Virus record (IMG/VR): IMGVR_UViG_3300026116_000038
DNA: 20,000 nt
Strand: one strand, 5' to 3'
Source: an uncultured virus (IMG/VR IMGVR_UViG_3300026116_000038)
Lineage: Duplodnaviria; Heunggongvirae; Uroviricota; Caudoviricetes
The position numbers were made by a program, and so were the translations under genes. The notes beneath the pieces are model-generated. The model had not been told where the DNA came from. It saw only the letters and a program-made list of their open reading frames with translations, and did no database searches. Shown piece by piece: positions 1,275 through 15,253 of the stretch (position 1 is its first letter; every line of letters begins with the position of its first letter).

Positions 1275-1383
1275 TACTGCAAATTCGTTACGTGACTAAC
1301 TGACATATATAAGCCATTTCGCTACATGCATTTTTTCCACACACCTTACCTCACCTCAGAAAAACCGTAATGATTTTGAATAG

Positions 1384-1412: not shown

Positions 1413-1445
1413 TGGGATCGTCCTCAATAGGAGAATTGATTTCAA

Positions 1446-1748: not shown

Positions 1749-1783
1749 TATATCTAAAATATGATTGGATATATAAATGATGA

Positions 1784-2599
1784 ATGGATTCACCTTTTAA
1801 TAATAGACATGATAAATATGAATCTATCTATGATCTTCAAATTATAGATAGAATTCCTATAATTATAAGAGTAAATGGAAGAAATTTTTCTCGTCTAACA
1901 CGAAGATTAGATCGTCCATATTGTATTAAATTAATCAATGTATTTAAAAATACATTATTACAAACTATTCAAGTAATAGATGATGCTATATTTGGTTTTC
2001 AATATAGTGATGAATTTACTTTTGTCTTAAGAAATGATAGATCATACGAATATCAACCTTGGTGTCAAAATAAAGTACAAGATATCGCTAGTGTAATATC
2101 TAGTATGATATCAATTAATTTTTTTAAAAATTTGGTTTTAGAAGATGATTTAAATGAACTTGATGGCGATGCTATTTTTAAAACAAAAGTATTTGCTATG
2201 CCCTCTATTAATGAGGCAGTTCATCATATAATATTAAAACAGCAATTATGCTATGGTGACGCTGTATTTAGAGCGGCAAATGCAGAATTTACTAAAATAT
2301 ATGGAAAAACTGAAGCGAATAAAAGATTATTTGGCAAAAATTTAGATGAACAAATAGAATTATTACAATCTGAGTGTAATATTGATTATGAAAATTATCC
2401 TAAAGCATATAGATTTGGAATTGGAGCTTATAAAGTTCCTAAAATAATAAAAACTATAGATGGTGAAATTCAAAAAAATAAATGGATAATAGACTCAAAT
2501 CTTCCTAGTTTTATTTTAGATAAAAGTTTTTTAAGTAATATAATATATTCTGGAGTTGACATTATTCGTGCTAATAGAGATATTAAAATAGACGATTGA
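1784..2599 (+). CDS. Thg1-like (tRNA-His guanylyltransferase / 3'-5' polymerase family) protein, divergent
   Basis: PIIIRVNGRNFSRLT matches the IRxDGxxF motif with D->N; FQYSDEFTF matches the SDE motif; KVQDIASVISS and YENYPKAYRFG resemble Thg1 segments. Confidence 0.85.
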   Translation: MDSPFNNRHDKYESIYDLQIIDRIPIIIRVNGRNFSRLTRRLDRPYCIKLINVFKNTLLQTIQVIDDAIFGFQYSDEFTFVLRNDRSYEYQPWCQNKVQDIASVISSMISINFFKNLVLEDDLNELDGDAIFKTKVFAMPSINEAVHHIILKQQLCYGDAVFRAANAEFTKIYGKTEANKRLFGKNLDEQIELLQSECNIDYENYPKAYRFGIGAYKVPKIIKTIDGEIQKNKWIIDSNLPSFILDKSFLSNIIYSGVDIIRANRDIKIDD

Positions 2600-2796
2600 A
2601 TTTCCATTTTGGCTGATAAATTTGAAAAATTAGCCAAAAATCGTGGATATTGTGTATACCCTGCAGAATTTTCAAAAAATTCAAATAATAAAAACCATAT
2701 TCTGATAAATAATAAAATCAAGCTAGAAACGCTTTAGCTAAAGTGAATCAATATTCTTCTGTTCCTGAGTGGTATTCTGGCACCCTTAAGAAATGA
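2600..2796 (+). pseudogene. Frameshifted remnant of a small hypothetical protein
   Basis: ISILADKFEKLAKNRGYCVYPAE...HILINNK continues in another frame as NQARNALAKVNQYSSVPEWYSGTLKK*. One extra A in the A-run near 2714-2717 would join them. No start codon is evident. Confidence 0.4.
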
Positions 2797-2800
2797 CAAA

Positions 2801-3034
2801 AATGCCCTTGTCAATATAGTTGGCAGCGGTTACATTTCTAAATATAAATTTGTATTAAAAATTGCAGAAATGTTTAATTATAATTCTAATTTGATTAAAC
2901 CTATAAAATTTCATTTATTAAATAAACCAGCTAACAAACCATTATTAGCCGGATGATTTACTGATCTTATAGAAAATTTAATTGGCAGAAAAATGTTGCA
3001 TTTTGCAGATGGTCTTAAAATAATTAATTTTTAA
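2801..3034 (+). pseudogene. C-terminal fragment of an RmlD-like (dTDP-4-dehydrorhamnose reductase) SDR gene with an internal TGA
   Basis: Translates as VNIVGSGYISKYKFVLKIAEMFNYNSNLIKPIKFHLLNKPANKPLLAG*FTDLIENLIGRKMLHFADGLKII, resembling the RmlD C-terminus (SxYEFAxxIA...IKP...PAxRP...LG...xxGL). TGA at 2954-2956; no N-terminal Rossmann part. Confidence 0.6.
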
Positions 3035-3086
3035 TTATTTTTATATTTTCACTTTAAAATAAAAATGAATAAAATGGCATTAGTAT

Positions 3087-3311
3087 ATGCGGCATTCATC
3101 TGCGGCAAGACTTCCAGTATATTTTATTCGAAATCGTCACACATGGATTGATTATCTCTCTAGTAACGGTTATAATAAAGCAAAATGTGCTGATTGTGGT
3201 TTAATTGCAATGCAGGACAAAGGTAGTTTAGGATACTTTGTTGCCGAGAACGAAGATCATGATGCATATTTAAGTTGCGAGCAGTTGATCATTAAAAATA
3301 TAATAGAATAA
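3087..3311 (+). CDS. Small putative Zn-binding protein (H-x-W...CxxC...C) with C-terminal IIKxIIE motif
   Basis: HTW, CADC, ends LSCEQLIIKNIIE; same architecture as ORFs 12150 and 12531. Confidence 0.75.
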   Translation: MRHSSAARLPVYFIRNRHTWIDYLSSNGYNKAKCADCGLIAMQDKGSLGYFVAENEDHDAYLSCEQLIIKNIIE

Positions 3312-3412
3312 CTTTTTTTTAAAATACGTTTCAGACCCTAGACAATTTAAACTTTAAGACTTAATTGTTAATTACGACGATACGTTTATAAAAACCCAAG
3401 AAAGAAAAGAAA

Positions 3413-4828
3413 ATGCTAACTGATGTACCTGAAATTGATCAAGCAGACCTTCAAAATATTTATAGCTATGCCATTGATAGTGGCACCAACGTCTTAATTT
3501 TAGGCCCTTCTGGTGGTGGAAAAACTCAAATGTGTTTTTCCGTTATCGCTAAGAAAAAATGCCGGCCGATTTACATCAATATGTCAGTACTAGAGCGTGT
3601 TGATTTTCAAGGTTTACCTGTTATTTCTGATGATAATAAAACTGTAAATTATGCCTGTCCTGACTTTTTACCTTTCGTTGATGTTAAAGTTCGAAAGCAA
3701 AAAGAAGCCATAAATACAATGATTTCTTGGCTAAATAAACAGCCAAATAAAAATATTGATTCTTTAGATAAATTTGATGCAATTAAATTTCTTGAAGGTG
3801 AAATTTCTAAAATTGATGCGGAAGAAGAAATCAAGCTTCTAAAGCAATCTGCTAATTCATTACCTAATAACGAAACTTTTAATGAATTAAAGGGTAGAAT
3901 TAACGGATTAGATCAATCAGTTAATGAGGAAACTCCTATTGTCATTATGTTTGATGAAGTTGATAAGGGTATGACTGAAGTTTTAAATACCCTGTTAGAA
4001 TTTTTGCAATTTGGATCAATTAATGGTCGTAAATTAAATATTCGTACTTGCATTATGACAGCTAACATGCCTGACGAATTTGCGCATTCAAATCAAATTT
4101 CTCATGCTATTACTAAGCGCGGGTTAACTTTTCAACTAAAGTTAAATTTTGAACAATGGGTTTCTTGGGCTGTCAATAATGGTATTAGTCCATTGATTAC
4201 CGGCTTCTTACGTCAAAATAATTCTTATCTATACAAGACGGCTAATGGTGATGATACAGCTTATGCTTTACCATCTCCTAGAACTTGGGAAATTGCTAAT
4301 AAAGTTATTAAATTCTTCGAAAAGGAAAAAGAAGAAAATATTAATGAAGAATTGCGTTTGAAATTAGTTTCAGGGGCTGTTGGTTCTACTGCTGCAATTC
4401 ATTTTAATAATTGGTATAAGCATTATCATCAACTTGATCCATTTATTAATGATTTAATGGAAAAGGGTGTTTATCCAACTAAAACCAAACCAGATATGGC
4501 TACTGAAGATATTTTTATCTGCGCTTTGTCTGCTTGTTCTAAAGTTGAATCTGTACTTAAGCCTGATAATCGTCCACAAATTGAAAAATATGTAAAAAAT
4601 GCTTTTAATTGGTTAGCTACGTTACCGCCTGATGTTCAAGTTGGATCTATTCGTATGGTTTTTGGTGGTAATTTTAATGCTTCTAAAGGTCTTGAAGGTG
4701 TAATTCAAAAGTATAAGTTATCTGAAATACCTGAATTTACCAATGTGTTTATTGATATTGATAAGAATTTTAGGAAATGGGAGAAATTAAATGCTGAACG
4801 ATCCGCAGAACTTAGTAAGTCAAAGTGA
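3413..4828 (+). CDS. MoxR/dynein-related AAA+ ATPase with a large helical insert
   Basis: Walker A GPSGGGKT, DFQGLP, Walker B IMFDEVDK, sensor-1 MTAN, AITKR Arg finger, PSPRTWE; overlaps the downstream VWA gene by 38 nt. Confidence 0.9.
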   Translation: MLTDVPEIDQADLQNIYSYAIDSGTNVLILGPSGGGKTQMCFSVIAKKKCRPIYINMSVLERVDFQGLPVISDDNKTVNYACPDFLPFVDVKVRKQKEAINTMISWLNKQPNKNIDSLDKFDAIKFLEGEISKIDAEEEIKLLKQSANSLPNNETFNELKGRINGLDQSVNEETPIVIMFDEVDKGMTEVLNTLLEFLQFGSINGRKLNIRTCIMTANMPDEFAHSNQISHAITKRGLTFQLKLNFEQWVSWAVNNGISPLITGFLRQNNSYLYKTANGDDTAYALPSPRTWEIANKVIKFFEKEKEENINEELRLKLVSGAVGSTAAIHFNNWYKHYHQLDPFINDLMEKGVYPTKTKPDMATEDIFICALSACSKVESVLKPDNRPQIEKYVKNAFNWLATLPPDVQVGSIRMVFGGNFNASKGLEGVIQKYKLSEIPEFTNVFIDIDKNFRKWEKLNAERSAELSKSK

Positions 4829-6245
4829 TTTTGATCGTTTAAACGAAAAAATCTCTGCAGCTAAAAGCATAATGGCCCGAAGTGTTGATCACGGAGGTAT
4901 GCCATTTGTTTACTCCTTTATTGCTACTAAAAAGCATTATCTAGACGATTTTACTAAAATTGGTAGAGGTAAAAAATCTCAATCAGAAGATGGTAAAACC
5001 GATGGAGCTGGTTTAGAAAAAGTTGAAGGTACTGCTGCAACTAATGGTAAGAAATATTTCTGGTATCCTGCGTTTTTAGAAAAATTATCAATTAATGAAT
5101 TAAAGATAATTTTTTGTCATGAAACGTATCACATTATGATGCAGCATTGTAATCCATTGAGATCTTTTGGAAAGAATCATGGAATTTGGAATTTAGCTGT
5201 TGATTATGTAGTTAATGCATCTATTGAACATGATTTCAGATGCAATAATGGAGACAGAAATAATTTCACAGCTAATTGTGAAGCTGCTTACAAAAATAAA
5301 ACAGAACATCCTATTTGGAATGGTAATCTTCATAAACCATATGTATTAGCTGATTTAATTGCTGATATTTTATCTTATAAAGGTTTATCAGAAGAAGAAA
5401 AAAATAAAAAACTAGAAGCGGAAAAGAAGAGTAATAATAAATGTACTTTTGTTGATTTTACTCTTTATAAACGTTCTCCAGAATCTATTTATGAAGAAAT
5501 AATGAATGCATATAAATCATCAGGTTTATCTGATGGTGATTTAAATGATTTAATGGATTCATATCTAACAAATGATTCTCATTTAGATTCTGATTTAGAT
5601 AAAAAGGCAATTTTTGAAGAGTTGTTAAGTGCAGCTACCGCCTCTAGGAAAATGTATGGTACTATTCCTGGTTGTCTTGAGGATACTTTAAATGAATTAG
5701 AAAATCCTAAACTTAAGTGGGAAGATATTTGTAGACAAAGTTTACAATATACCCGTCAAGAGTTTGGGGGTAGAAACGATTGGTGTCGATTTAGAAGGAA
5801 GTCTATACCTTTAGGTTTATATATTCCTAAGAAAAAAGATCAATTTATTCGATGGTTATGTTTACTGGATACTTCTGGTAGCATGTCTTTGGATGATATG
5901 ACTTATGGAGTTTCTCAACTAAAAGTATTAGATAGTAGATCTGAGGGTATTGTTGTACCAGTAGATGCCGAACCCCATTGGAATAAAATGGTTAAGATTA
6001 AATCAATGTTTGATCTTCCCAAAATCAATTTGGCTGGCCGGGGTGGAACAGTATTTGATGAATTTTTCGACACCTATCAAAAACGAATCAAAGAACGAAT
6101 TGATTTAATTATTGTAATTACTGATGGAGGTTTTCATTTAAATTGTAAAACTCCACCTGTAGATACAGTATTTGTAATTACTAACCAACATATGCCAGAA
6201 GTTCCATTTGGAAGAGTTGCACCATTAAGGTCAATTAATACTTAA
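4791..6245 (+). CDS. DUF2201-type HExxH metallopeptidase-like domain fused to a VWA domain
   Basis: TAATNG, HETYH (HExxH), WNLAVDYVVN; MIDAS DTSGSMS, GRGGT, ITDG. Confidence 0.9.
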   Translation: MLNDPQNLVSQSDFDRLNEKISAAKSIMARSVDHGGMPFVYSFIATKKHYLDDFTKIGRGKKSQSEDGKTDGAGLEKVEGTAATNGKKYFWYPAFLEKLSINELKIIFCHETYHIMMQHCNPLRSFGKNHGIWNLAVDYVVNASIEHDFRCNNGDRNNFTANCEAAYKNKTEHPIWNGNLHKPYVLADLIADILSYKGLSEEEKNKKLEAEKKSNNKCTFVDFTLYKRSPESIYEEIMNAYKSSGLSDGDLNDLMDSYLTNDSHLDSDLDKKAIFEELLSAATASRKMYGTIPGCLEDTLNELENPKLKWEDICRQSLQYTRQEFGGRNDWCRFRRKSIPLGLYIPKKKDQFIRWLCLLDTSGSMSLDDMTYGVSQLKVLDSRSEGIVVPVDAEPHWNKMVKIKSMFDLPKINLAGRGGTVFDEFFDTYQKRIKERIDLIIVITDGGFHLNCKTPPVDTVFVITNQHMPEVPFGRVAPLRSINT

Positions 6246-6256
6246 TTGAATTTCAT

Positions 6257-7027
6257 ATGATTATTTGTCATGGTTCTGATTGGCATGGTTGTCAATATAA
6301 AATTCCGTTAGATATATCAGGTAAAAACTATGAAGTTGTTACTCTATTTCCAAAAATAGATAAAGATTTTGATGTTTTTGTAATGACTGGAGATTTTCTT
6401 CCTAATAAAATTTGGGGAGCCAATCGAAATAAACATAAACTTGAAAAAGAAAAACATTTTCAAGCTGATTGGCTTCGTAAACAAGCTAAATCATTACAAG
6501 AATGTATTAAAAATAAACCTTTTCTATTTTGTGGCGGTAATCATGACTTTATTAATCCTTGCCGTATTCTTCAAGAATGTGGAATAAATGCGATTGATTT
6601 AACTGATAAAGTTGTAGATTTTATGGGTTTTACCTGGTATGGATTTCCTTATATTCCTGTTATGGAATATAATTGGAATTATGAAAAAAATTTAGAACAA
6701 ATGCAATATGAAGGATCTATGATGATTAATAGATTAAAAGATTCTAATAAATTAGATTCTTTAGATATTATTGCTGCTCATTGTCCTTTGCATGGAATTT
6801 TAGATAAAGCTTCTAATGAAAATATTGGAAATTCAGTAATGAATTCTCTGGTATCATATAAATTACCAAGGCTTCCAAAATTGTATTTGTGCGGTCATAA
6901 TCATGAAGATGGTGGTAAATTCACTTATTTAAATGGTTTAGATCGAACAACTGAAAGTATGTTCATTTCTAACGCTGCTACTACATACCGCATAATTGAT
7001 CTTGACAATATGCCTGCATGTGCTTAA
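6257..7027 (+). CDS. Calcineurin-like metallophosphoesterase (Icc/MPPED-like)
   Basis: SDWHG, TGDF, GNHD, AHCP and CGHNHE motifs. Confidence 0.9.
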   Translation: MIICHGSDWHGCQYKIPLDISGKNYEVVTLFPKIDKDFDVFVMTGDFLPNKIWGANRNKHKLEKEKHFQADWLRKQAKSLQECIKNKPFLFCGGNHDFINPCRILQECGINAIDLTDKVVDFMGFTWYGFPYIPVMEYNWNYEKNLEQMQYEGSMMINRLKDSNKLDSLDIIAAHCPLHGILDKASNENIGNSVMNSLVSYKLPRLPKLYLCGHNHEDGGKFTYLNGLDRTTESMFISNAATTYRIIDLDNMPACA

Positions 7028-7030
7028 ATT
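7002..7030 (+). promoter_or_regulatory. Putative sigma70 promoter
   Basis: TTGACA-17 bp-TAAATT upstream of ORF 7098. Confidence 0.55.
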
Positions 7031-7097
7031 TATTACTGTATGAATAAGTTAAATAGTATAACTTATAGTTTACGAATATAAACAGGTATAAATAAAA

Positions 7098-7562
7098 ATG
7101 CAACGTGCACGAATTAATATGTATCCGAAAGAAGATGATGATAAAGAAATTTATTATTTAGGAAAATTAAAAAGTCCAATTACCATAAATTTCAAAAATG
7201 GTGTGGCTTTTATGTTATATCCTGATGATGAATTTCCAGAACTTCATTTTTGTCCAATTGATCACCCCGATATTTCAGATGTTTTTCAATATTATGGTGT
7301 TCGCAGGTCTAATCCAAATAGAACTAAACATGGAAATTTACCTATAGAACTAAGTCTTAGGTATGAAAAAGATCCTAAGCCTGGAAATAAACCAAAAAGA
7401 TTTTATATTGGCAGAATTCAATTTGATGGATACTTGGACTGTTCTAATGGCGTTGTATTTTTAGCTTTCATTTCTGATGAAGGTGAAGAAGAATTACAAA
7501 TAGCCGTAGTAGATCCAGAAAAAAATTACGTTAAAAAAGCACAACGGGTAGAAAGAAAATAA
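7098..7562 (+). CDS. Hypothetical protein made of two tandem homologous domains
   Basis: YYLGKLKSPITINFKNGVAFMLYPDDEFPELHF aligns with FYIGRIQFDGYLDCSNGVVFLAFISDEGEEELQI. Confidence 0.75.
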   Translation: MQRARINMYPKEDDDKEIYYLGKLKSPITINFKNGVAFMLYPDDEFPELHFCPIDHPDISDVFQYYGVRRSNPNRTKHGNLPIELSLRYEKDPKPGNKPKRFYIGRIQFDGYLDCSNGVVFLAFISDEGEEELQIAVVDPEKNYVKKAQRVERK

Positions 7563-7563
7563 A

Positions 7564-8151
7564 ATGTCATTAAATAAAATAAAAAATGAGAATTCTAAAA
7601 TGAAATTAACTAATCAGAGATCTGGTAAAGAAACTGAAGTGAATTCAAATATTCGTATTTCGTATTTTACAGTTCATACGAATAAAGGTATTGGATATGT
7701 TTGTGTTGCTTTATTAAGACCAGAAAAAGGCTCTACTAGTAATTCTTATCGGGCGGCTTTTTCTTCGTATTCTCCGTTAGATAACAAATCTTTTTCTAAA
7801 GTAAATGCCCGAAATGCTGCTATTGGTCGATTACTTTGTTGGCGAACTGATCGAAAAGATGTAACTGGAAAACAATGTGAAACAAATCCGCGTTTAGAGT
7901 TCAATTACGTGGATTATGATATTCAGACAGAGAAGAAATTGAACTTGAAGGATGTTTTCGTTCAAGCTTTAAATTTAGCTATGCACAACCGTAATGTTCC
8001 TAGTTGGGTTGAGCGATCTTCATTTATCGCATATGGGTTAGACCCGGTTATGGTGACTTCTATTGATGCGCCAAGTCCTGTTGTTTTTACGCGAGAATCA
8101 CGAAATAAGTTAAAAAAACAACTTAACGGTCTTGACAATAAAGCAGTTTAA
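7564..8151 (+). CDS. Hypothetical phage protein (alternative start ATG 7600)
   Basis: 195-aa ORF tightly packed between neighbours; no confident family assignment. Confidence 0.7.
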   Translation: MSLNKIKNENSKMKLTNQRSGKETEVNSNIRISYFTVHTNKGIGYVCVALLRPEKGSTSNSYRAAFSSYSPLDNKSFSKVNARNAAIGRLLCWRTDRKDVTGKQCETNPRLEFNYVDYDIQTEKKLNLKDVFVQALNLAMHNRNVPSWVERSSFIAYGLDPVMVTSIDAPSPVVFTRESRNKLKKQLNGLDNKAV

Positions 8152-8160
8152 ATCCATTAT
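8132..8160 (+). promoter_or_regulatory. Putative sigma70 promoter
   Basis: TTGACA-17 bp-CATTAT; the TTG called as an ORF start at 8132 is this -35 box. Confidence 0.45.
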
Positions 8161-8203
8161 GAGTAGTAACAGGGCAAAAACCCAAGTAAAGGAAAAAATT
8201 AAA

Positions 8204-8704
8204 ATGTCTGAAATTCTAAATAATCAAAATTTGCGAACTGTTCAAAGTCTTTATACAATTTCTCCGGATTTTCGAAATCAATTCGATAAGCTGGTAAAGA
8301 CTGAAATTGCTAAGGCTAAGGATTTCTTGAATAAGTTGTCATTTGATGGCGTTGAAAAACAAGAAGCGCCAGAAGCTCCTACAAAGAAGCGTGGTCGTCC
8401 GGCTGGTTCCAAGAATAAGGCTCCAGCAAAGCCTAAGAAGGAAAAGAAACCTGAAGGGCAAGAACCAGCAAGTGCTCGTGAAAATGGAGATGTAACGCAT
8501 AAAGCTGCCATTTTGGCCGCTCTAACTACATCTGCTGATGGGCTTTCAGCTGGACAAATTCTTGAAGCTATTACGGCGGCAAAGCATAAGCGCTATACTC
8601 CGCCAACTAAGGCTACTCTCTATACTACACTAAATGGTATGAAAAATGATGGTGTGGTTAATATGATTGGTGAGCGGCCGAATACTAAATATGTTGTAGC
8701 GTGA
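8204..8704 (+). CDS. AT-hook + winged-helix DNA-binding protein (nucleoid-associated-like)
   Basis: KKRGRPAGSKNK AT-hook, Lys/Pro/Ala linker, C-terminal THKAAILAAL...GLSAGQILEAI...TLYTTLNGMKNDGVV wHTH pattern; AAGGA SD before ATG 8204. Confidence 0.75.
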   Translation: MSEILNNQNLRTVQSLYTISPDFRNQFDKLVKTEIAKAKDFLNKLSFDGVEKQEAPEAPTKKRGRPAGSKNKAPAKPKKEKKPEGQEPASARENGDVTHKAAILAALTTSADGLSAGQILEAITAAKHKRYTPPTKATLYTTLNGMKNDGVVNMIGERPNTKYVVA

Positions 8705-8730
8705 TTTTATATACTACAAAAGTATATCTG

Positions 8731-8770
8731 AAAAAAGGCTAGATGATATAAGCTCATCTAGCCTTTTTTT
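8731..8770 (+). terminator. Rho-independent terminator, potentially bidirectional
   Basis: AAAAAAGGCTAGATGA-tataagc-TCATCTAGCCTTTTTTT: perfect stem flanked by A and T tracts. Confidence 0.9.
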
Positions 8771-8785
8771 ATTTTAAGGAATTAA

Positions 8786-9049
8786 ATGAAACATTTTGAA
8801 GATTTGTGGGTTGAATCAGAAGAATATACTAAATTATATTATAATGATCCTGTCAATTTAGTTATTGAAAAAGTAAAAATACAATTAGATAGTTTAATTA
8901 ATTGTAATGACCAAAATAAAAAAATAGAAATAATTGGAAAAATATTATTAGATATTTCATTTATTTCCCAAAAATTAAATATTGATGTTTATTCAGCATT
9001 AAAAAAAGAAATTGAAGAATTAAAAATTGAATTATTCGATCCGGAATGA
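8786..9049 (+). CDS. Degenerate MazG-like all-alpha NTP pyrophosphohydrolase fold protein
   Basis: EIIGKILLDISFISQKLNIDVYSALKKEIE resembles the MazG ELGDxL...LxxxLxID.ExAL helix pair; AAGGA SD. Confidence 0.5.
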   Translation: MKHFEDLWVESEEYTKLYYNDPVNLVIEKVKIQLDSLINCNDQNKKIEIIGKILLDISFISQKLNIDVYSALKKEIEELKIELFDPE

Positions 9050-9078
9050 TTGACATTTTAATTTAAATTACCTATATT
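9050..9078 (+). promoter_or_regulatory. sigma70 promoter, likely giving a leaderless transcript
   Basis: TTGACA-17 bp-TATATT; ATG 9085 follows 6 nt after the -10 box. Confidence 0.6.
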
Positions 9079-9084
9079 ACTGTA

Positions 9085-9261
9085 ATGATTAAGATTTTAG
9101 CATTTTTAATATGCTTTAGTTTTGTTAATTTATCTTTTGCAAATGATAAGGTTAATGAAACATTAGAAAAGAAAATAAAACCTAATATAGATAAGGAAAT
9201 ACCATCATCGTTATGTGATTCATCTAAAATAAATTGGAAAATTAAAAATTACCTAAAATGA
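9085..9261 (+). CDS. Small protein with N-terminal signal peptide (58 aa, not in the ORF track)
   Basis: MIKILAFLICFSFVNLSFA|NDKVNETLEKK...NYLK*. Confidence 0.55.
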   Translation: MIKILAFLICFSFVNLSFANDKVNETLEKKIKPNIDKEIPSSLCDSSKINWKIKNYLK

Positions 9262-9283
9262 ATAACTATTATAGTATATTTAT

Positions 9284-9547
9284 ATGAAAATTTTATTTTA
9301 TAATATAGTTGAAAATATTACAAAAAGTAAATTAACTCATGTTAAATTACAGTTAATTGATGCTACATTTACAAAAATATTAGATAATAATCCTAAATTA
9401 AAAATAGGAACTGCTTTAGAAGACAGTTCAGATAATATTTTTAGAGTAACAGGTTATTATGGAGATTATATCGTACTTCATTCCGATAAATTAGGTAAAC
9501 ATCCTGTAGGAAAATATTTATTCTGTAAACAAATTATAAATGTTTAA
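9284..9547 (+). CDS. Hypothetical protein
   Basis: 87-aa ORF overlapping the next start by 8 nt. Confidence 0.6.
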   Translation: MKILFYNIVENITKSKLTHVKLQLIDATFTKILDNNPKLKIGTALEDSSDNIFRVTGYYGDYIVLHSDKLGKHPVGKYLFCKQIINV

Positions 9548-9872
9548 AATTTTTTCAGAAACAGATAAACTAGGAACTATTTATTGGTATATAGAGGGCA
9601 CTTTCATACTTCATAGAGAAGATGGGCCTGCGGTTGAATGGTATACCGGGGATAAATTTTGGTATTTAAACGGAAAAACTCATAGAGTAGATGGACCGGC
9701 TATAGAATATGCCAATAGAATTAAAGTTTGGTGTCAAAATGACATGCGTCATAGGACAGATGGACCGGCTGTAGAATATAGTAATGGAGAAAACCAATAT
9801 TGGTTATATGGAATATATTACGAATATATTCGAACTAATGAAGAATGGATTATATTTCAGATAATTAATTAA
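9540..9872 (+). CDS. LHRxDGPA(I/V)E repeat protein, paralog 1 (three repeats)
   Basis: LHREDGPAVE, THRVDGPAIE, RHRTDGPAVE; ends TNEEWIIFQIIN. Confidence 0.85.
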   Translation: MFKIFSETDKLGTIYWYIEGTFILHREDGPAVEWYTGDKFWYLNGKTHRVDGPAIEYANRIKVWCQNDMRHRTDGPAVEYSNGENQYWLYGIYYEYIRTNEEWIIFQIIN

Positions 9873-9873
9873 T

Positions 9874-10143
9874 ATGAGTAAAGTATATTCAAAAATTGAT
9901 TCTAGTGGCAATATATCTTGGTATAGAGAAGGGACAAATTTTCTTCATAGAGAAGATGGACCCGCCATAGAATATTGGAATGGAGATAAAGAATGGTATC
10001 AAAACGGATATCTCTATAGACTAGATGGTTCAGCAGTAGAATATGCTAATAATTTTATGGATAACGAATATTATTTAAATGGACGATGATATCCAGATAT
10101 AAAAACGGATGAAGAATTTATTATATTTCAAATAATAAATTAA
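9874..10143 (+). pseudogene. LHRxDGPA repeat protein, paralog 2, interrupted by an in-frame TGA at 10087-10089
   Basis: NGR*YPDIKTDEEFIIFQIIN aligns with paralog 3 NGQWFSDIKTDEEWIIFQIIN; TAA at 10141-10143 abuts ATG 10145. Confidence 0.8.
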
Positions 10144-10144
10144 A

Positions 10145-10408
10145 ATGCTAAAAGTTTATTCAAAAATAGATGAATATGGAACTTTTTTTTGGTATAAAGA
10201 AAATACGGATATTCTTCATAGAGATGACGGTCCAGCTGTAGAGATGGGTGATGGATTTAAGTGTTGGCATCAACATGGTCATCTTCATAGAGTTGATGGT
10301 CCCGCAATAGAATGGCCGGATGGACACAAAGAATATTGGTTAAATGGACAATGGTTTTCAGATATTAAAACTGATGAAGAATGGATTATATTTCAAATAA
10401 TAAATTAA
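10145..10408 (+). CDS. LHRxDGPA repeat protein, paralog 3 (two repeats)
   Basis: LHRDDGPAVE, LHRVDGPAIE; ends TDEEWIIFQIIN. Confidence 0.85.
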   Translation: MLKVYSKIDEYGTFFWYKENTDILHRDDGPAVEMGDGFKCWHQHGHLHRVDGPAIEWPDGHKEYWLNGQWFSDIKTDEEWIIFQIIN

Positions 10409-10436
10409 ATTATGATTAATTAGAAATTATAATATA

Positions 10437-10703
10437 ATGAATATAATTCAATTATTCGGATGGATTGGAACAATTTTATTATCTGTTGCTTGTTTTCCAC
10501 AATTATATCAAGTAGTTAAAGCTAAAAATGCTATAGGATTACATTGGTATTATCTCATTTTAGTTTTAGTTGGAATGAGTTTAATGTTAATTTATGTTTT
10601 ATTTACAACATTTAATATACAATTAATATTAAGTTATACAATTCAATTATTAATATTTTCAATTATTATATATTATAAAAAGTATCCTAAAAATTTAATT
10701 TAA
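10437..10703 (+). CDS. PQ-loop / SemiSWEET-like three-helix membrane protein
   Basis: GWIGTILLSVACFPQLYQVVKAKNAIGL PQ-loop signature; three hydrophobic segments in 88 aa. Confidence 0.8.
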   Translation: MNIIQLFGWIGTILLSVACFPQLYQVVKAKNAIGLHWYYLILVLVGMSLMLIYVLFTTFNIQLILSYTIQLLIFSIIIYYKKYPKNLI

Positions 10704-11144
10704 AGCTTGTTGTAATAAATAACATGCTTCTTCGGATTTTGAATGAATACCCATTATCATATCATCTAATCCAAGAGTCATTTCATCTAATTTTTTAAGA
10801 TTTTCATATGTGATTTTAGATATATTTAAAAATTCTTTTTCTACTGCTAAAGAACGTTCTAAAATACCTAAATTATTAACTTTATTAATAATTTCATTGA
10901 CAATTTCGGCGTGCATCACTATATTTAAAGATGCAGGCCCAAATAATCCTATAGTTTTTTCAGCCGCTTTATCAGATGAATCTTGAGCTGATTCATATAA
11001 TCTTTCTAAGAGTAAATGATCTCCATAGAAAGATGAGCCTTTTGTTTGCCAATGCCCTGATTGATGTATAAAATATAAAGCTCTAAGATGGGCAATATAA
11101 GTATTCATTAATTTTAAAACAGGATCATTAGCGTATTTTTTCAT
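10695..11144 (-). CDS. Dps/ferritin-like protein
   Basis: HQSGHWQTKGSSFYGDHLLLERLYE...SDKAAEK matches the Dps HWNxxG..F...H..xE..Y....D..AER pattern. Confidence 0.82.
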   Translation of the reverse strand: MKKYANDPVLKLMNTYIAHLRALYFIHQSGHWQTKGSSFYGDHLLLERLYESAQDSSDKAAEKTIGLFGPASLNIVMHAEIVNEIINKVNNLGILERSLAVEKEFLNISKITYENLKKLDEMTLGLDDMIMGIHSKSEEACYLLQQALN

Positions 11145-11192
11145 ATCTCTATACGATATTATAGATATCAGTATTTAATTAAATTGGGTAAA

Positions 11193-11930
11193 ATGAAAAA
11201 AATTTTAGTACCAAATGATGTACAAATTGCAGTAATTGGTGATATTCATGAACATTCTGAGCAATTTTTTAAAATTTTAGATCAAATAAAACCTTCCAAA
11301 AATACTTGGATTGTATCATTAGGCGATGTGGGTGAAAAAGGTTTTGGTGAGAAAGAATTTAATTCTATTACTGATAAATTAATGGAATTATCATATCTAA
11401 ATATAGGATACGCTTGCCGTGGAAATCATGAAATTAAAATGATTAAACGCAATAAAAATGATTTATCCTGTCAACTTCAATGGTGGAAAAAACAACCTTT
11501 AAGTATTACATTTGAATTTGCATCAGGTGCATTATTAACTTGTTTACATGCCGGTGTTTTACCTTCAATGTCTTGGGAAAGTATTCAAAATAATACTGAA
11601 GTTGTATATATTAGAGATATTGATTCAAATTTACGAATGATTCCGTTAGTTTGGCAAGTAATTAACGGTGTAAAAACATTAATTCCTGCAAAACCTGATG
11701 GGAAAAGTTGGCATTCGTATTATGATGGTAGATTTGGTTATATTGCATCTGGCCACAATGCTCAAAAAGATGGAATTGCTAAATACTATAATTATTCATG
11801 CAATTTAGATTCAGCTGTTTTTGATACTGGAATTTTAACAGCTCAAATGTTTACTTCTGAAGGTAAATTAGGTGAACAAATTACTGTAACTGGTACACCG
11901 TTTAAGCCAAAATTAAACGTTAAGGAATAA
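11193..11930 (+). CDS. PPP/ApaH/PrpE-like metallophosphoesterase (similar to the Pnkp phosphatase domain)
   Basis: GDIHE, LGDVGEKG, GNHE, LHAG, SGHN and NLDSAVFDTGILTA motifs; ATG 11193 preferred over TTG 11184. Confidence 0.88.
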   Translation: MKKILVPNDVQIAVIGDIHEHSEQFFKILDQIKPSKNTWIVSLGDVGEKGFGEKEFNSITDKLMELSYLNIGYACRGNHEIKMIKRNKNDLSCQLQWWKKQPLSITFEFASGALLTCLHAGVLPSMSWESIQNNTEVVYIRDIDSNLRMIPLVWQVINGVKTLIPAKPDGKSWHSYYDGRFGYIASGHNAQKDGIAKYYNYSCNLDSAVFDTGILTAQMFTSEGKLGEQITVTGTPFKPKLNVKE

Positions 11931-11931
11931 T

Positions 11932-12147
11932 ATGTCTGAAAAACCAATATCACTTTCATTATATTGTTGTAATTGTGATTCTCTTATTGATGTAAAAGAG
12001 CAAGAATTAATGAAAGAAAATCCTCCAGAACATATAGTTAATTTTTTAATCAAACATAATAATTGTATATTAGAAGGATTTATTAATGGTCGTTCTATTG
12101 GCGGTATGAAAAATAAACTAAAAGACAATAACAATAATATAAATTAA
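11932..12147 (+). CDS. Small putative Zn-binding protein
   Basis: YCCNCD...FLIKHNNC; AAGGA SD; 1-nt gap from the previous gene. Confidence 0.7.
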   Translation: MSEKPISLSLYCCNCDSLIDVKEQELMKENPPEHIVNFLIKHNNCILEGFINGRSIGGMKNKLKDNNNNIN

Positions 12148-12149
12148 TT

Positions 12150-12530
12150 ATGAATAAGGAAAGTGATAAAATAATTGAAATAATTTTAAATTATTTAGAA
12201 AATAAATTTAGTCATTCATTTAAAATAAAAAAAGACAATGACTGGAATATCAATACTTATTGGTATCCTAAATTTTATTGTTTTTGTAAAAAATGTAATT
12301 ATAATTTATTTATATGTGTGAAGAATATTAATACTAAAAAACTAGGTAGTGAGGAATCATTCATTGATAATTATTGCAAAAATATTTTTATAAAAATCAA
12401 TGAAATTAAATTTATTATAAGGATCATAAATCATGATGGTAAAATTACCTCTAAAACAGTTAGAGAATACGATAATGAATCTGCATTATTAACCTGTAAT
12501 CAATATGTAATTCAAAAAATTATTGAATAA
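12150..12530 (+). CDS. H-x-F...CxxC...C protein with C-terminal IIxxIIE motif, paralog A
   Basis: HSF, YWYPKF, CKKCNY; ends LLTCNQYVIQKIIE. Confidence 0.8.
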   Translation: MNKESDKIIEIILNYLENKFSHSFKIKKDNDWNINTYWYPKFYCFCKKCNYNLFICVKNINTKKLGSEESFIDNYCKNIFIKINEIKFIIRIINHDGKITSKTVREYDNESALLTCNQYVIQKIIE

Positions 12531-12896
12531 ATGATAGAAAATATAATTAAAAATTATCTAGAAGATAAATTTCATCATTCTTTTCGTATGGAAAATAAAT
12601 CAGAGCGTTCAATTAGTGAATCTTATTGGTATCCTAAATTTGATTGTATTTGTAAAAAATGTAATTATACTATATTTATATGTGTAGTTAATATTGCTCT
12701 AGATATAGATTTAATTCAATTTGAAGATATAATTAATATTCATTGTAAACATAATTTAATAAATATTAATGATATTAAATTTATAATATGTAGTAGATAC
12801 AGTGAAAATGATAGATTGAAATCAATTCAACAATTTGATAAAGAATCCGATTTATTAACTTGTGAACAATATATTATTAAAACTATAGTTGAATAA
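12531..12896 (+). CDS. H-x-F...CxxC...C protein with C-terminal motif, paralog B
   Basis: Tandem paralog of 12150 (NYLExKFxHSF, YWYPKF, CKKCNY); ends LLTCEQYIIKTIVE. Confidence 0.8.
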   Translation: MIENIIKNYLEDKFHHSFRMENKSERSISESYWYPKFDCICKKCNYTIFICVVNIALDIDLIQFEDIINIHCKHNLININDIKFIICSRYSENDRLKSIQQFDKESDLLTCEQYIIKTIVE

Positions 12897-12897
12897 A

Positions 12898-13508
12898 ATG
12901 TTTAAAAAGATAATAAATAAATTTAAATTACCTTCACCCAAAGAATTAGGAAGAAGTGACTATAACGCATTACCAATGAGAAATTTTAATCATAATAATA
13001 TGTATACGTGGGAAGATTATTATGAAGAATTAAAAATAAAATATCCTATAAGGTATTTTATTTTTCATTTTTTAAAGAGAAAAATTGATCATAAAATTAT
13101 TAATCGATTATCAAGATTAAAATATTATATCATATATTAGATTTAAGAAATAAAGATAACGAATATGAATACGGGTATATTGATGCTGATTATAAAATAT
13201 TATATAGCTTAATGGCTATTTTAAATGAATTTATTCAAGCTCAAGATACAGCTAATAGAATAATTTATTTACAAAAGGAATTAACTTTAGATCCCGATTG
13301 TAAAAATTACAATTGGAACGAAAGTATCAAAATTTGCCAGGAATTATTAAATATCCAATATTGGTGGAATGTTGAACGTCCTAAAATAATAAAATTATCT
13401 TATAGTGATCCTATTTATGATTTCGATTTTACAAACAAAATTAGGCGAACAGATAATGAAATGATGAAAAAATTAATTGATTTACGTGAAATGATGTGGT
13501 TATCATGA
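12898..13508 (+). pseudogene. Hypothetical phage gene split by a frameshift near 13125-13135
   Basis: The first ORF ends KYYIIY*. The frame of ORF 13212 is open upstream as YHILDLRNKDNEYEYGYIDADYKILYSLMAILNEF, overlapping the end of the first ORF. Confidence 0.6.
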
Positions 13509-13795
13509 ATCGTCGTTTGGATTTATCACCATGACTTGGTTCTCCACCACTGATTATATCTTATACAGATTTACAACCATATAAATATGTTTATAGAGAT
13601 GATTGTGGGCAAAAACATGTTTGCTGGATTCACGGTCATTATATAGCTCCACCGAATGGATTATATAAATGTACTGAAGTTGAAAATATTTTAGTGTGTG
13701 AAGCTCCGTTTATTTATTATAAAAGTAATAATGGAAAATTTCCTATTCGTCATACTCACAATACTCGAAAAAATAAATGTAAAAAAATGAAATAA
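13505..13795 (+). pseudogene. 96-codon Cys/His-containing ORF with an in-frame TGA at codon 10
   Basis: ATGA-coupled start; MNRRLDLSP*LGSPPLIISYTDLQPYKYVYRDDCGQKHVCWIHGH...KCKKMK* fills the gap up to ORF 13803. Confidence 0.6.
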
Positions 13796-13802
13796 AAATA
13801 AA

Positions 13803-13982
13803 ATGTTTATAAATAATATAATATCAATAATACGTTTTTATAAAATATTTATTGGCACCTGGATAATCGGCACCTGGATAATTGTAGGAGTTTTAGGATA
13901 TTTTATATTCGTTAGACCTGAACGACTTAGGCGTAATAATTTAAATTTAAAGAAAAATTCTAATGAAAGTGATTTAAAATGA
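13803..13982 (+). CDS. Small single-TM membrane protein (59 aa, not in the ORF track)
   Basis: IFIGTWIIGTWIIVGVLGYFIFVRPERLRR; ATGA overlap with ORF 13979. Confidence 0.6.
   Translation: MFINNIISIIRFYKIFIGTWIIGTWIIVGVLGYFIFVRPERLRRNNLNLKKNSNESDLK
13854..13882 (+). repeat. In-frame tandem duplication with 15-bp period
   Basis: GGCACCTGGATAAT-C-GGCACCTGGATAAT, encoding GTWII twice. Confidence 0.9.
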
Positions 13983-15252: not shown

Positions 15253-15253
15253 T

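What the first reader, a model, noticed from the sequence alone, without database searches (positions are those of the whole stretch)
3087..12896. Shared 12-residue C-terminal tag on six small proteins from two unrelated families
Seen: the C-termini align without gaps: SCEQLIIKNIIE (3311), TNEEWIIFQIIN (9872), TDEEFIIFQIIN (10143, after the TGA), TDEEWIIFQIIN (10408), TCNQYVIQKIIE (12530), TCEQYIIKTIVE (12896). Consensus [ST]-[CDN]-[EN]-[EQ]-x-[IV]-I-x-x-I-[IV]-[EN]-COOH. The bodies are unrelated (H..CxxC..C proteins vs LHRxDGPA repeat proteins) and the genes lie in three separate loci. Inference: a modular amphipathic tail that docks interchangeable cargo or adaptor proteins onto one common partner, such as the capsid interior, a protease/chaperone or the MoxR-VWA pair. 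I know of no named family for it.
Basis: partly seen in the sequence, partly recalled or inferred. Interest (0 to 1): 0.8.

Follow-up and report, generated by a model that had tools for sequence, protein, structure and literature searches.

The report
Shared tail tag in huge phages
About one fifth of the genes in this giant soil phage and its relatives encode small, otherwise unrelated proteins that all end in the same short helix; it is a modular tag kept by selection on the protein, and what it binds is still unknown.

Summary
They are the visible edge of something much larger. A 131-kb record identical to window bases 1-19691 has 46 of 231 ORF-called genes ending in [ST]-x-[DEN]-[EQ]-Phi-I-I-x-x-I-I-[ENDQ]. 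A complete 435-kb relative has 64 strict DNA matches against 0 in the reversed control. In 147.6 kb the 7-residue core sits directly before a stop 64 times and elsewhere 9 times, with about 5 expected.

The 170 distinct tail-bearing ORFs fall into 85 BLAST-unlinked body clusters. These include an unnamed H-CxxC-C zinc-finger-like family, HRxDGPA repeats, DUF4116 and DUF6794.

Third codon positions vary 2-4 times more than first and second positions, so selection acts on the peptide. In the 435-kb phage the same codons also supply the next gene's Shine-Dalgarno site and ATG. In the window's phage they do not.

The tail is therefore modular and functional. Docking to a common partner is the best guess but was not shown. 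In the zinc-finger family the tail also carries an invariant Cys. I found no description in print.

The parts
3087..3311 (+). B1: 74-aa member of an unnamed H-CxxC-C zinc-finger-like mini-protein family. The tail SCEQLIIKNIIE is encoded at 3273-3308.
   Evidence: ORF. A profile search found 21 representatives at E<=0.001, all ending [ST/N]C[DNEKAS][EQ]x[IQT]I[KRL]xI[IL](E). H18, C34, C37 and C64 are invariant in 24 of 24 aligned sequences. No Pfam or PDB family reaches its threshold. The next gene starts 100 nt downstream, so this tail is not part of a chained junction.
9540..9872 (+). A1: 110-aa protein with three HRxDGPA repeats. The tail TNEEWIIFQIIN is encoded at 9834-9869.
   Evidence: It is one of 17 aligned sequences whose tail is nearly invariant (E78 E79 W80 I82 F83 Q84 I85 N87) while the bodies are 52-70% identical.
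9874..10143 (+). A2: repeat-protein gene interrupted by an in-frame TGA at 10087-10089. The tail TDEEFIIFQIIN is encoded at 10105-10140.
   Evidence: Read-through translation. The TGA is also present in the IMG/VR record G001. Base 10089 reads G (TGG, Trp) in contigs of runs X2 and X3 from two other studies. TGA is a normal stop in these phages, used by 7 of 48 tail genes in G001.
10145..10408 (+). A3: 87-aa protein with two HRxDGPA repeats. The tail TDEEWIIFQIIN is encoded at 10370-10405.
   Evidence: AlphaFold2 with a 17-row alignment gives mean pLDDT 78, beta-hairpins and a helix at residues 77-86.
12150..12530 (+). B2a: 126-aa Cys-rich protein (H, CxCxxC, then a long insert). The tail TCNQYVIQKIIE is encoded at 12492-12527.
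   Evidence: It is 49% identical to B2b. No other homolog was found for B2b.
12531..12896 (+). B2b: 121-aa paralog of B2a. The tail TCEQYIIKTIVE is encoded at 12858-12893.
   Evidence: It shares only the 13-residue tail with B1 by BLASTP.
3413..4828 (+). MoxR-like AAA+ ATPase directly downstream of B1. This is context and a candidate partner only.
   Evidence: Pfam AAA at 29.7 bits against a cut-off of 21.2. A homolog with 28% identity lies in the complete 435-kb relative (G002 421005-421784), between tail genes.
4791..6245 (+). DUF2201 protein: putative HExxH metallopeptidase domain plus a VWA-like domain. This is context and a candidate partner only.
   Evidence: Pfam DUF2201_N at 60.5 bits and DUF2201 at 31.7 bits, both above their cut-offs. 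The sequence HETYH is visible. Homologs lie in G002 at 417670-418716 and 434627-435001. A similar AAA+ / DUF2201-like pair sits directly upstream of a repeat-protein gene in the unrelated locus L029, by my reading of the sequences.

Best explanation
The 12 residues are the local form of a modular C-terminal amphipathic helix. It consists of an N-cap [ST], acidic first-turn residues, and then Phi-I-I-x-x-I-I-x-COOH. A clade of huge (jumbo) soil and rhizosphere phages attaches this helix to a large, fast-evolving repertoire of small proteins with unrelated bodies.

SHOWN:
- The tail is strictly terminal.
- It sits on dozens of unrelated bodies.
- It is kept by selection on the peptide.
- Its invariant face is the hydrophobic one (positions -8, -7, -6, -3, -2). 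The polar positions (-5, -4, -1) are free and differ by family (F-Q..N on the repeat proteins, K-N..E on the Cys proteins) or by genome (K-D, K-N, K-G).

INFERRED as the most likely mechanism: the exposed Ile stripe plugs all these proteins into one shared interaction. That could be a common phage or host partner, or a common assembly. The variable bodies (repeats, zinc fingers, orphans) would then act as interchangeable binding or effector modules, as in the multigene host-interaction families of large DNA viruses.

Two overlays are SHOWN:
- In the H-CxxC-C family the helix starts with an invariant Cys, so there it is also part of a probable zinc site.
- Because most tail genes are chained head to tail, the tail's codons double as the next gene's translation start region. 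In the 435-kb relative AAG-GAT supplies a Shine-Dalgarno site 9 nt before an ATG formed by GAA+TGA. In the window's own phage no Shine-Dalgarno site lies in the tail.
For: Terminal specificity:
- The 7-residue core lies directly before a stop 64 times and elsewhere 9 times in the six-frame translation of 147,635 nt, with about 5 expected.
- In the window's phage record G001 (131,451 bp, identical to window 1-19691), 46 of 231 ORF-called genes end in it. There are 4 internal matches in 40,362 residues.

Abundance:
- G001 has 22 K-type and 13 F-Q-type DNA pattern matches (controls 1 and 0).
- The complete 435,004-bp G002 has 64 matches against 0 in the control.
- The 36-nt Cys-type pattern has 0 matches in one genome of each of 185,579 prokaryote species.

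Modularity:
- The 170 distinct tail ORFs fall into 85 body clusters.
- Bodies include DUF4116 (70.7, 87.5 and 29.7 bits against a cut-off of 24.9) and DUF6794 (44.1 against 27.1), with 7 more DUF4116 proteins above cut-off among 64 others scanned.
- They also include the H-CxxC-C family, the HRxDGPA repeats, a C4 zinc-ribbon type and many orphans.
- A non-Cys family in G001 ends NLT[ED]EEFIIKNIIE, which bridges the two window subtypes. A MORN-like protein in L084 ends RTWDEFIIQLIIE.

The tail is an add-on for some bodies:
- All 7 repeat proteins listed for locus L036 end after the last strand.
- DUF4116 proteins of the cultured phages SCTP-2 and Atu_ph07 align only to residues 9-272 of 296. 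The SCTP-2 proteins end differently.

Selection acts on the protein. In sets chosen without reference to positions -8..-1, nucleotide entropy by codon position is 0.54/0.30/1.13 bits (G002, n=43), 0.62/0.45/1.13 (G001 Cys family, n=21) and 0.26/0/0.52 (G001 repeat family, n=20).

There was no recent DNA exchange between families. Tail DNA of the two window families is 16-21 of 36 nt identical.

The tail is a helix: AF2 places a helix at residues 77-86 of the 87-aa repeat protein.

The tail is kept without chaining: 11 of 48 (G001) and 15 of 87 (G002) tail genes have the next ORF more than 30 nt away.
Against: - No partner was found, and nothing here shows binding.
- In the Cys family the tail is integral: the invariant Cys64 goes with H18, C34 and C37, and the first 'tail' is internal in the tandem protein P0069.
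- Small phage proteins diverge quickly. Some of the 85 'unrelated' clusters may be one old fold with a C-terminal helix. Many G002 orphans share a longer C-terminal stretch, L[TS]x[DE][DE].
- Part of the conservation is at the DNA level. In G002 the tail Lys codon is AAG 44 times and AAA 35 times, against a genome-wide AAG share of 0.22. The last codon ends in A in 41 of 43 tails, and an ATG spans the last codon and the stop in 29 of 43. A Shine-Dalgarno core precedes 61% of 33 genes that follow a tail gene, against 37% of other genes.
- The genome-specific residue at -4 (D, G or N) is explained by this Shine-Dalgarno overlay and not by co-evolution with a partner.
- Two tail subtypes coexist in one genome.
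- Gene calls are my own greedy ORF calls, not curated annotation.
- The G002 regions were chosen around pattern hits.
Confidence: 0.5

Rival explanations
1. The tail is an integral structural helix with no shared partner. Each small protein needs a C-terminal capping helix to close its own hydrophobic core. The likeness comes from common descent of many fast-diverging small proteins, a generic capping-box-plus-amphipathic pattern, and the Ile bias of AT-rich codons.
For: - In the H-CxxC-C family the tail Cys is invariant with H and CxxC (24 of 24). The motif is internal in the first domain of the tandem protein P0069.
- The wider HRxDGPA family nearly always follows its last repeat with a [ST]xxE[FWY] helix, which each lineage words differently. 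Examples are SSQEEFERLIKLKALW, ITSDQMLIYYLKYGFLK and YEEALKIWKMNEAMK.
- Ile makes up 9.7% of residues in the window's proteins.
- hhalign finds nothing significant between the families.
Against: - The same worded helix sits on an all-beta repeat body, on alpha-helical DUF4116 repeats, on DUF6794 and on zinc ribbons. These cannot share one core.
- Repeat and DUF4116 bodies exist without it.
- The composition nulls and the empirical null of 810 other C-termini are exceeded.
- The motif is almost never internal.
Confidence: 0.2
2. The tail is a by-product of a conserved intercistronic junction. On this reading, the last 7-8 codons are primarily the ribosome-binding and re-initiation cassette of the next gene in chained arrays. 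New genes acquire the tail when they are inserted at such junctions. The peptide itself would be tolerated rather than functional.
For: - The stop-to-next-start distance is at most 5 nt for 29 of 48 (G001), 60 of 87 (G002) and 15 of 19 (G003) tail genes.
- In G002, AAG-GAT gives AAGGA 9 nt before an ATG made of GAA+TGA. AAG is used 44 times against AAA 35, with a genome share of 0.22. TGA is the stop in 53 of 87 tails, and the last codon ends in A in 41 of 43.
- A Shine-Dalgarno core lies upstream of 61% of the genes preceded by a tail gene, against 37% of others and 8% background.
- G004 writes K-G as AAAGG.
- Earlier scan notes describe LRW-tail arrays that work this way.
Against: - In the window's own phage, 0 of 10 genes preceded by a tail gene have a Shine-Dalgarno core, against 29% of other genes. 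The tail Lys codon there is AAA 20 times and AAG once.
- Third codon positions vary 2-4 times more than first and second, which is the signature of peptide-level selection.
- The conserved N-cap half lies upstream of any RBS.
- The tail is kept where the next gene is more than 30 nt away (11 of 48 and 15 of 87; B1 in the window).
- Tail DNA is only about 50% identical between families.
Confidence: 0.1
3. The tail is a shared stability signal. It would be a C-terminal degron, or a shield against C-terminal degradation, that gives all these small, probably early, proteins a common lifetime through one host or phage protease.
For: - The strict C-terminal position fits recognition of a free end.
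- The window's phage and the 435-kb relative both encode an AAA+ ATPase and an HExxH-type peptidase-VWA protein among tail genes.
- That C-terminal residues control bacterial protein turnover is recalled knowledge (ssrA/ClpXP, Tsp). No call supports it.
Against: - Eight to thirteen conserved residues with helical periodicity and an N-cap are more than known C-terminal degrons need.
- The very last residue is the least constrained at the protein level (E, Q, K, L, R, T, N, D).
- There is no direct evidence.
Confidence: 0.1

Closest known systems
Capsid targeting sequence (CTS) of phage T4 internal proteins
   Same: A short conserved terminal peptide is the only thing shared by a diverse, fast-evolving set of small phage proteins. 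It addresses them to one destination. [quoted passage not shown]
   Different: By my recollection the T4 CTS is N-terminal and is cut off by the prohead protease. Here the tag is C-terminal, and neither cleavage nor packaging is shown. T4 has a handful of such proteins; these phages have 46 in 131 kb and at least 64 in 435 kb. No sequence relationship was tested.
Encapsulin cargo-loading peptides
   Same: These are short C-terminal peptides on unrelated cargo enzymes that dock them inside an HK97-fold shell (review PMC7355545; search listing and abstract only; the details are recalled).
   Different: Those peptides are extended and Gly/Ser-rich (recalled), are encoded next to the shell gene, and sit on enzymes. 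Here the tag is an Ile-rich helix on tiny non-enzymatic proteins scattered in arrays. No shell link is shown.
Lineage-specific multigene families of large DNA viruses and jumbo phages. Examples: the ~35-copy zinc ribbon of Bacillus phage G; poxvirus ankyrin proteins with a common C-terminal PRANC/F-box-like end.
   Same: These are large tandem expansions of small zinc-ribbon or repeat proteins in giant genomes. In the poxvirus case, variable repeats are joined to one common C-terminal docking module. The phage G expansion is noted in Iyer et al. 2021 (PMC7824862; passages read). PRANC is recalled.
   Different: In those cases each expansion is one homologous family. Here one short tail crosses many unrelated bodies. 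The passages I read in Iyer et al. mention no MORN, DUF4116 or C-terminal tail (0 occurrences each).
Chained arrays of 'LRW-tail' phage mini-proteins
   Same: These are head-to-tail arrays of small giant-phage genes whose shared last codons are both part of the protein and the next gene's ribosome-binding site. I found the same dual coding in the 435-kb relative.
   Different: Those arrays are one paralog family. In the window's own phage the tail holds no Shine-Dalgarno site. Those notes are unchecked AI notes.
PeSL promoter-terminator cassettes that mediate modular shuffling in T4-type phages (PMC2839356, PMC4122927; search listing and abstracts only)
   Same: These are conserved short elements at gene boundaries in hyperplastic regions full of small orphan genes. 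They offer a way for unrelated ORFs to share a boundary sequence.
   Different: PeSLs are non-coding DNA motifs conserved as DNA. Here the conserved element is coding and is conserved as peptide, with drifting synonymous sites. It is only about 50% identical as DNA between families.

Membership tests
MORN repeat (Pfam MORN / MORN_2), for the LHRxDGPA proteins | Match to the Pfam MORN models | tested here: not met
   No MORN model was reported at E<=1 for the three window proteins. The only hit is DUF6745 at 23.7 bits, below its 27-bit cut-off. NCBIfam and PHROGs gave nothing.
MORN repeat (Pfam MORN / MORN_2), for the LHRxDGPA proteins | Single-layer beta-hairpin repeat fold like solved MORN proteins | tested here: inconclusive
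   The AF2 model (pLDDT 78) is made of hairpins plus one helix. Foldseek against the PDB gave no match at E<=0.001. T. brucei MORN1 appears at ranks 6 and 50 with E 1.9 and 3.4.
Zinc ribbon / treble-clef type zinc finger, for the H..CxxC..C proteins | Four conserved metal ligands | tested here: met
   H18, C34, C37 and C64 are invariant in 24 of 24 aligned family members.
Zinc ribbon / treble-clef type zinc finger, for the H..CxxC..C proteins | Match to a named zinc-finger family or a solved relative | tested here: not met
   The best Pfam hit is Zn_Ribbon_TF at E 0.0023, in 2 of 24 members and below threshold. The best PDB sequence hit is eS27 at E 0.045. The AF2 model was too poor to use (pLDDT 50).
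Zinc ribbon / treble-clef type zinc finger, for the H..CxxC..C proteins | Zinc actually bound | not testable with these tools
   This needs metal analysis or a structure.
Terminal targeting peptide (T4 CTS / encapsulin cargo-loading peptide kind) | A short terminal peptide shared by otherwise unrelated proteins | tested here: met
   There are 170 tail ORFs in 85 body clusters, and the motif is terminal 64 times against 9.
Terminal targeting peptide (T4 CTS / encapsulin cargo-loading peptide kind) | Binds a defined receptor (scaffold or shell) and is sufficient to target a foreign protein | not testable with these tools
   No partner is known. The single co-folding job gave no verdict.
RBS-in-tail chained arrays (dual-coding junction) | The last codons of the upstream gene form the Shine-Dalgarno site or start of the next gene | tested here: not met
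   For the window's phage: 0 of 10 downstream genes have a Shine-Dalgarno core, and the Lys codon is AAA 20 times against AAG once. The feature is met in the 435-kb relative G002: 61% of 33 downstream genes, and an ATG spans the last codon and stop in 29 of 43 tails.
PeSL-type mobile regulatory cassette | The boundary element is conserved as DNA between unrelated genes | tested here: not met
   Tail DNA is 16-21 of 36 nt identical between the two window families. It averages 12.8-12.9 of 24 nt between families in two other lineages.
PDZ-binding C-terminal motif | A hydrophobic last residue, and a PDZ reader encoded by the phages | tested here: not met
   The last residue is E, N, D or Q. That PDZ ligands end in a hydrophobic residue is recalled. 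A standalone PDZ gene exists in L002 (40 bits). Neither it nor Pfam PDZ_6 is found in G001, G002 (complete) or G003, while the control rang in 14 of 14 genomes.

The most novel reading that the evidence does not exclude
The tail is an address label. It would be a C-terminal tag that delivers a library of 50-100 diversified small effector proteins (zinc fingers, repeat binders, orphans) to one phage-built destination. That destination could be the capsid interior, for co-injection with the DNA as a C-terminal counterpart of the T4 capsid targeting sequence on a far larger scale. It could also be the conserved AAA+ / peptidase-VWA machine, which would read the Ile face and the acidic end. If so, these phages would run a tag-based cargo system covering a fifth of their genes.
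Probability: 0.2. Interest if true: 0.9.

Novelty: new variant of a known kind. Interest (0 to 1): 0.72.

Why it matters
Huge phages are full of small orphan genes that nobody can sort. This work gives a simple, checkable handle on about a fifth of the genes in one clade. All of them carry one short, selectable C-terminal helix, so they probably share a step: a partner, a destination or a fate.

If the tail is a docking or packaging tag, it would be one of the most heavily used protein address labels known in a virus. It would also be a ready-made tool for loading foreign proteins. The variable bodies would then be a natural library of host-directed binders.

The dual use of the same codons as peptide and as the next gene's start region in one relative, but not in the window's phage, is a clean natural test case. 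It separates peptide-level from RNA-level constraint in chained gene arrays.

Tried and rejected
- **Whole genome.** None is held for the window. I worked instead from the IMG/VR record G001, which genome search named as the nearest record.
- **Cultured phages.** There is no near-identical DNA and no tblastn hit for an H-CxxC-C protein.
- **First DNA pattern.** The C-E-Q form of the tail found nothing in viral contigs. The wider C-[DN]-E form did.
- **The search for related loci with the 24-row Cys-family alignment.** The call failed with an error because no stretch was conserved enough. I used a DNA pattern instead.
- **AF2 of the 74-aa protein with 3 rows.** Mean pLDDT was 50 and the tail was unmodelled, so it is unusable.
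- **Co-folding of the 87-aa repeat protein with the 74-aa Cys protein, to test tail-tail contact.** The verdict was 'no answer' (score 0.03, mark 0.32, partner fold uncertain). This is no evidence either way.
- **ESM Atlas look-alikes of the 74-aa protein.** Only unnamed clusters appeared, plus a sub-threshold lead to DUF1660 (0.89). I did not follow it up. The later Pfam scan of 24 family members at E<=1 did not list it.
- **PDZ reader idea**, from a standalone PDZ gene in L002. It is not conserved in the relatives.
- **Recent recombination between families.** Rejected on DNA identity.
- **hhalign between the repeat and Cys families of another lineage (L031).** Nothing was found, not even the tail.
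- **Other lineages.** In two other repeat-protein lineages, unrelated Cys proteins in the same contig end like that lineage's repeat proteins: L031...YLKYGFLK against ...Y[KL]KYxxLx; L068/L037...KLKAFQ against ...K[LM]K[AC][FL]x. The own-lineage profile ranks 1st, 2nd and 1st of 19. I treat this as a suggestive side observation only. The other 15 lineages showed nothing, and a related profile (T11) scored the L031 tails as well as the own-lineage one did.
- **Expression.** No RNA holder is listed. One run labelled 'METAGENOMIC RNA-Seq' holds pieces of the region, but its RNA status is a guess.
- **Bacterial genomes.** All 80 printed rows have a single match, in unrelated taxa. I read these as chance or unrelated and examined none.
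- **This scan's notes.** There are none on this genome or on this sequence.

Full report
**1. The observation**

The fifth copy, 9874-10143, continues in frame after a TGA at 10087-10089 and ends TDEEFIIFQIIN. No Pfam, PHROGs or NCBIfam family reaches its threshold on any of the six. The repeat proteins give only a sub-threshold DUF6745 hit.

The 121-aa and 126-aa Cys proteins are paralogs with 49% identity. The 74-aa protein shares only its last 13 residues with them. The repeat family and the Cys family share nothing but the tail. hhalign aligns 14 tail columns at E 0.16. BLASTP of the bodies with tails removed gives 0 cross hits.

**2. Is it more than chance?**

- A profile of the three repeat-protein tails scores the three Cys tails 16.7-22.3. 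Of 4877 internal 12-mers from the window's other genes, 3 reach 16.7. The best of the 31 other C-termini scores 10.7. The composition-matched null gives 7e-5 to 7e-4.
- Among 810 C-termini of non-repeat ORFs from 75 unrelated metagenome loci, 1 reaches the weakest Cys tail, and it is an antisense artefact. In the window plus its close relative L002, 4 of 67 do.
The profile tests are the fair ones.

**3. What each family is**

*The LHRxDGPA proteins.* They belong to a very large 23-residue repeat family.
- Members usually occur as arrays of paralogs.
- In nearly every lineage the last repeat is followed by a [ST]xxE[FWY] helix that the lineage words in its own way.
- The window's wording, DIKTDEEWIIFQIIN, occurs in 16 of the 48 homologs found. 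It is nearly invariant in 17 aligned sequences whose bodies are 52-70% identical.
- AF2 (pLDDT 78) predicts hairpins plus a helix at residues 77-86. No solved structure matches significantly.

*The 74-aa protein.* It belongs to a real, unnamed family. A profile search over 1.84 billion representatives found 21 at E<=0.001.
- All of them end in a tail of this kind.
- In 24 aligned members the invariant columns are M1, H18, C34, C37, C64 and I69. That is an H-CxxC-C tetrad whose last ligand is the tail's Cys.
- One member is a tandem of two such domains, and its first 'tail' is internal.
- The family has no Pfam or PDB relative.
- At least four further members lie on the same 390,274-bp contig as the window.

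**4. The tail is far more widespread than six genes**

A DNA pattern for C-[DN]-E-x-I-I-K-x-I-[IL]-E-stop found four IMG/VR contigs. In them the same ending also sits on bodies with no Cys pattern.

The search tool named a 131,451-bp virus record, G001, as the nearest record to the window. It is identical to window positions 1-19691.
- G001 has 22 K-type and 13 F-Q-type tail patterns, all on the coding strand. The controls gave 1 and 0.
- By ORF calling, 46 of 231 genes end in the tail. About 24 are repeat proteins and about 17 are H-CxxC-C proteins. A four-member non-Cys family ends NLT[ED]EEFIIKNIIE, and there is one other.
- That third family joins the two window subtypes: T-[ED]-E-E-F-I-I from one and K-N-I-I-E from the other.

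A complete 435,004-bp relative, G002 (CheckV 100%), has 64 strict pattern matches against 0 in the reversed control.
- It has no repeat family and no F-Q-type tail.
- In the roughly 150 kb I fetched around its pattern hits, 87 distinct ORFs carry the tail. About 21 more carry degenerate versions.

**5. Position and modularity**

- In the six-frame translation of 147,635 nt, the 7-residue core lies directly before a stop 64 times and elsewhere 9 times, with about 5 expected. Most of the 9 fall in short spurious frames.
- In G001's 231 genes there are 4 internal matches in 40,362 residues.
- The 170 distinct tail ORFs from six records fall into 85 BLASTP body clusters.
- Named bodies are DUF4116 repeats and DUF6794, both above the Pfam cut-offs. 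Others are the H-CxxC-C family, the repeat family, a C4 zinc-ribbon type in which the second CxxC abuts the core, and many orphans.
- The minimal shared unit is Phi-[IM]-I-[KR]-[DN]-I-I-[EQ]-COOH. Most copies add L-[ST]-x-[DE]-[DE] before it.
- The repeat body and the DUF4116 body exist without this tail elsewhere. For them it is an add-on.
- The 36-nt pattern has no match in one genome of each of 185,579 prokaryote species.

**6. Peptide or DNA?**

I chose tails by features outside positions -8..-1. Nucleotide entropy at codon positions 1/2/3 was:
- 0.54/0.30/1.13 bits (G002, n=43);
- 0.62/0.45/1.13 bits (G001 Cys family, n=21);
- 0.26/0/0.52 bits (G001 repeat family, n=20).

Third positions drift while the residues hold, so selection acts on the peptide. 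Tail DNA of the two window families is only 16-21 of 36 nt identical, so there has been no recent exchange between them.

There is also a DNA overlay.
- Most tail genes are chained to the next gene. The gap is at most 5 nt in 29 of 48, 60 of 87 and 15 of 19 cases.
- In G002 the Lys-Asp codons are AAG-GAY far more often than codon usage predicts: AAG 44 against AAA 35, with a genome-wide AAG share of 0.22.
- That gives AAGGA 9 nt before an ATG formed by the last codon's A plus the TGA stop, in 29 of 43 tails.
- Genes that follow a tail gene have a Shine-Dalgarno core in 61% of 33 cases, against 37% of other genes.
- This explains the genome-specific residue at -4 (D in G002, G in G004 written AAAGG, N elsewhere) and the loose last residue.
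- In the window's own phage the tail holds no Shine-Dalgarno site. There, 0 of 10 downstream genes have one, against 29% of other genes, and the Lys codon is AAA 20 times and AAG once. The DNA overlay therefore cannot explain the six tails of the finding.
- Earlier notes of this scan on 'LRW-tail' arrays suggested this test.

**7. Mechanism**

Shown: a terminal, modular helix selected at the peptide level. Its conserved face is the Ile stripe (-8, -7, -6, -3, -2) and its polar face is free.

Inferred: the stripe gives all these proteins one common interaction. Which one is open. Candidates, none tested:
- The MoxR-like AAA+ and the HExxH-peptidase/VWA protein next to the 74-aa gene. Homologs sit among tail genes in G002. 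Since a fifth of all genes are tailed, this is weak.
- The capsid or scaffold, by analogy with the T4 capsid targeting sequence.
- The tails themselves.
- A host protein.

A phage PDZ reader is excluded as a conserved partner.

**8. Known or new?**

Full-text searches found no description:
- the tail strings;
- MORN repeat with phage, paralogs and C-terminal;
- MORN with jumbo phage;
- lineage-specific expansions with zinc ribbon in jumbo phages.

The comparative jumbo-phage paper of Iyer et al. notes a ~35-copy zinc ribbon in phage G. The terms MORN, DUF4116 and 'C-terminal tail' occur 0 times in its main text. Its supplements were not read and could hold family lists. The closest known kinds are terminal targeting peptides and multigene families of large viruses. 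This is a new variant of those kinds. It is not yet a demonstrated mechanism.

**9. The interrupted copy**

The TGA at 10087-10089 is also in G001. It reads TGG in contigs of two other studies. TGA is an ordinary stop in these phages. This is therefore a strain-specific nonsense change at a conserved aromatic position, not recoding.

**Limits**

- Gene calls are greedy ORF calls of my own.
- The G002 regions were chosen around hits.
- BLAST-unlinked does not prove unrelated for small proteins.
- No experiment or co-fold supports binding.

Noticed in passing
window 19692-20000: The window is identical to the IMG/VR record G001 up to base 19691, then becomes unrelated (207 mismatches in the last 309 bases). 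The break falls inside ORF 19506-20000, whose later part matches the Gfo/Idh/MocA oxidoreductase family (48.3 bits). This could be a chimeric join in one assembly or a strain-specific replacement.
   Followed up: partly
window 10087-10089: The in-frame TGA of the middle repeat gene reads TGG (Trp) in contigs of two other studies (runs X2 and X3), so relatives have an intact gene with the tail.
   Followed up: yes
window 10391-10408 versus L070 about 151-270: TTT CAA ATA ATA AAT TAA (F-Q-I-I-N-stop) is the exact reverse complement of TTA ATT TAT TAT TTG AAA (L-I-Y-Y-L-K). The latter lies in the tail of repeat proteins of another lineage. An antisense ORF there ends CSDQKAVFQIIN. This is probably a coincidence of AT-rich codons.
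   Followed up: no
window 3-2599, 6257-7027, 11184-11930 and 16368-17597: A nucleic-acid repair and tRNA toolkit surrounds the tail genes. It comprises an ATP-dependent DNA ligase, a Thg1-like tRNA-His guanylyltransferase, two calcineurin-like phosphoesterases and a T4 Rnl1-type RNA ligase (Pfam).
   Followed up: no
window 10437-10703: An 88-aa PQ-loop membrane protein (32.9 bits, cut-off 22) lies directly after the repeat-gene trio. This is an unusual family for a phage.
   Followed up: no
L002 10861-11115: A standalone 84-aa PDZ-domain gene (PDZ_6, 40 bits) lies in a close relative, 640 nt downstream of an H-CxxC-C gene. It is not found in G001, G002 or G003.
   Followed up: yes
L002 11609-13828: This 739-aa helicase-like ORF appears to carry an intein-like insert (...GDKYQ C VSVESM ... 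LTHN SIYAFAG...), judged by eye only.
   Followed up: no
L037 1012-1215 and 1188-1688; L031 and L068 arrays: In another repeat-protein lineage the tail EQWLKLKIFQ overlaps by 28 nt, in another frame, the N-terminus (MAKTKNISI...) of the next paralog. In L031 about 20 small CxxC proteins end ...EAxxxYKKYxxLx, resembling that lineage's repeat-protein tail ...YLKYGFLK.
   Followed up: partly
P0069 (135 aa, metagenome protein): This is a tandem fusion of two H-CxxC-C domains. The first copy's tail is internal and altered at its end (..FIIKKHIG), while the second ends ..FIIKKIIE.
   Followed up: no
window 14235-15107 (minus strand): This 290-aa protein of no known family ends ...KLSLEKIIEVIDSVIE. 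It is an Ile-rich amphipathic C-terminus that is out of register with the tail motif.
   Followed up: no
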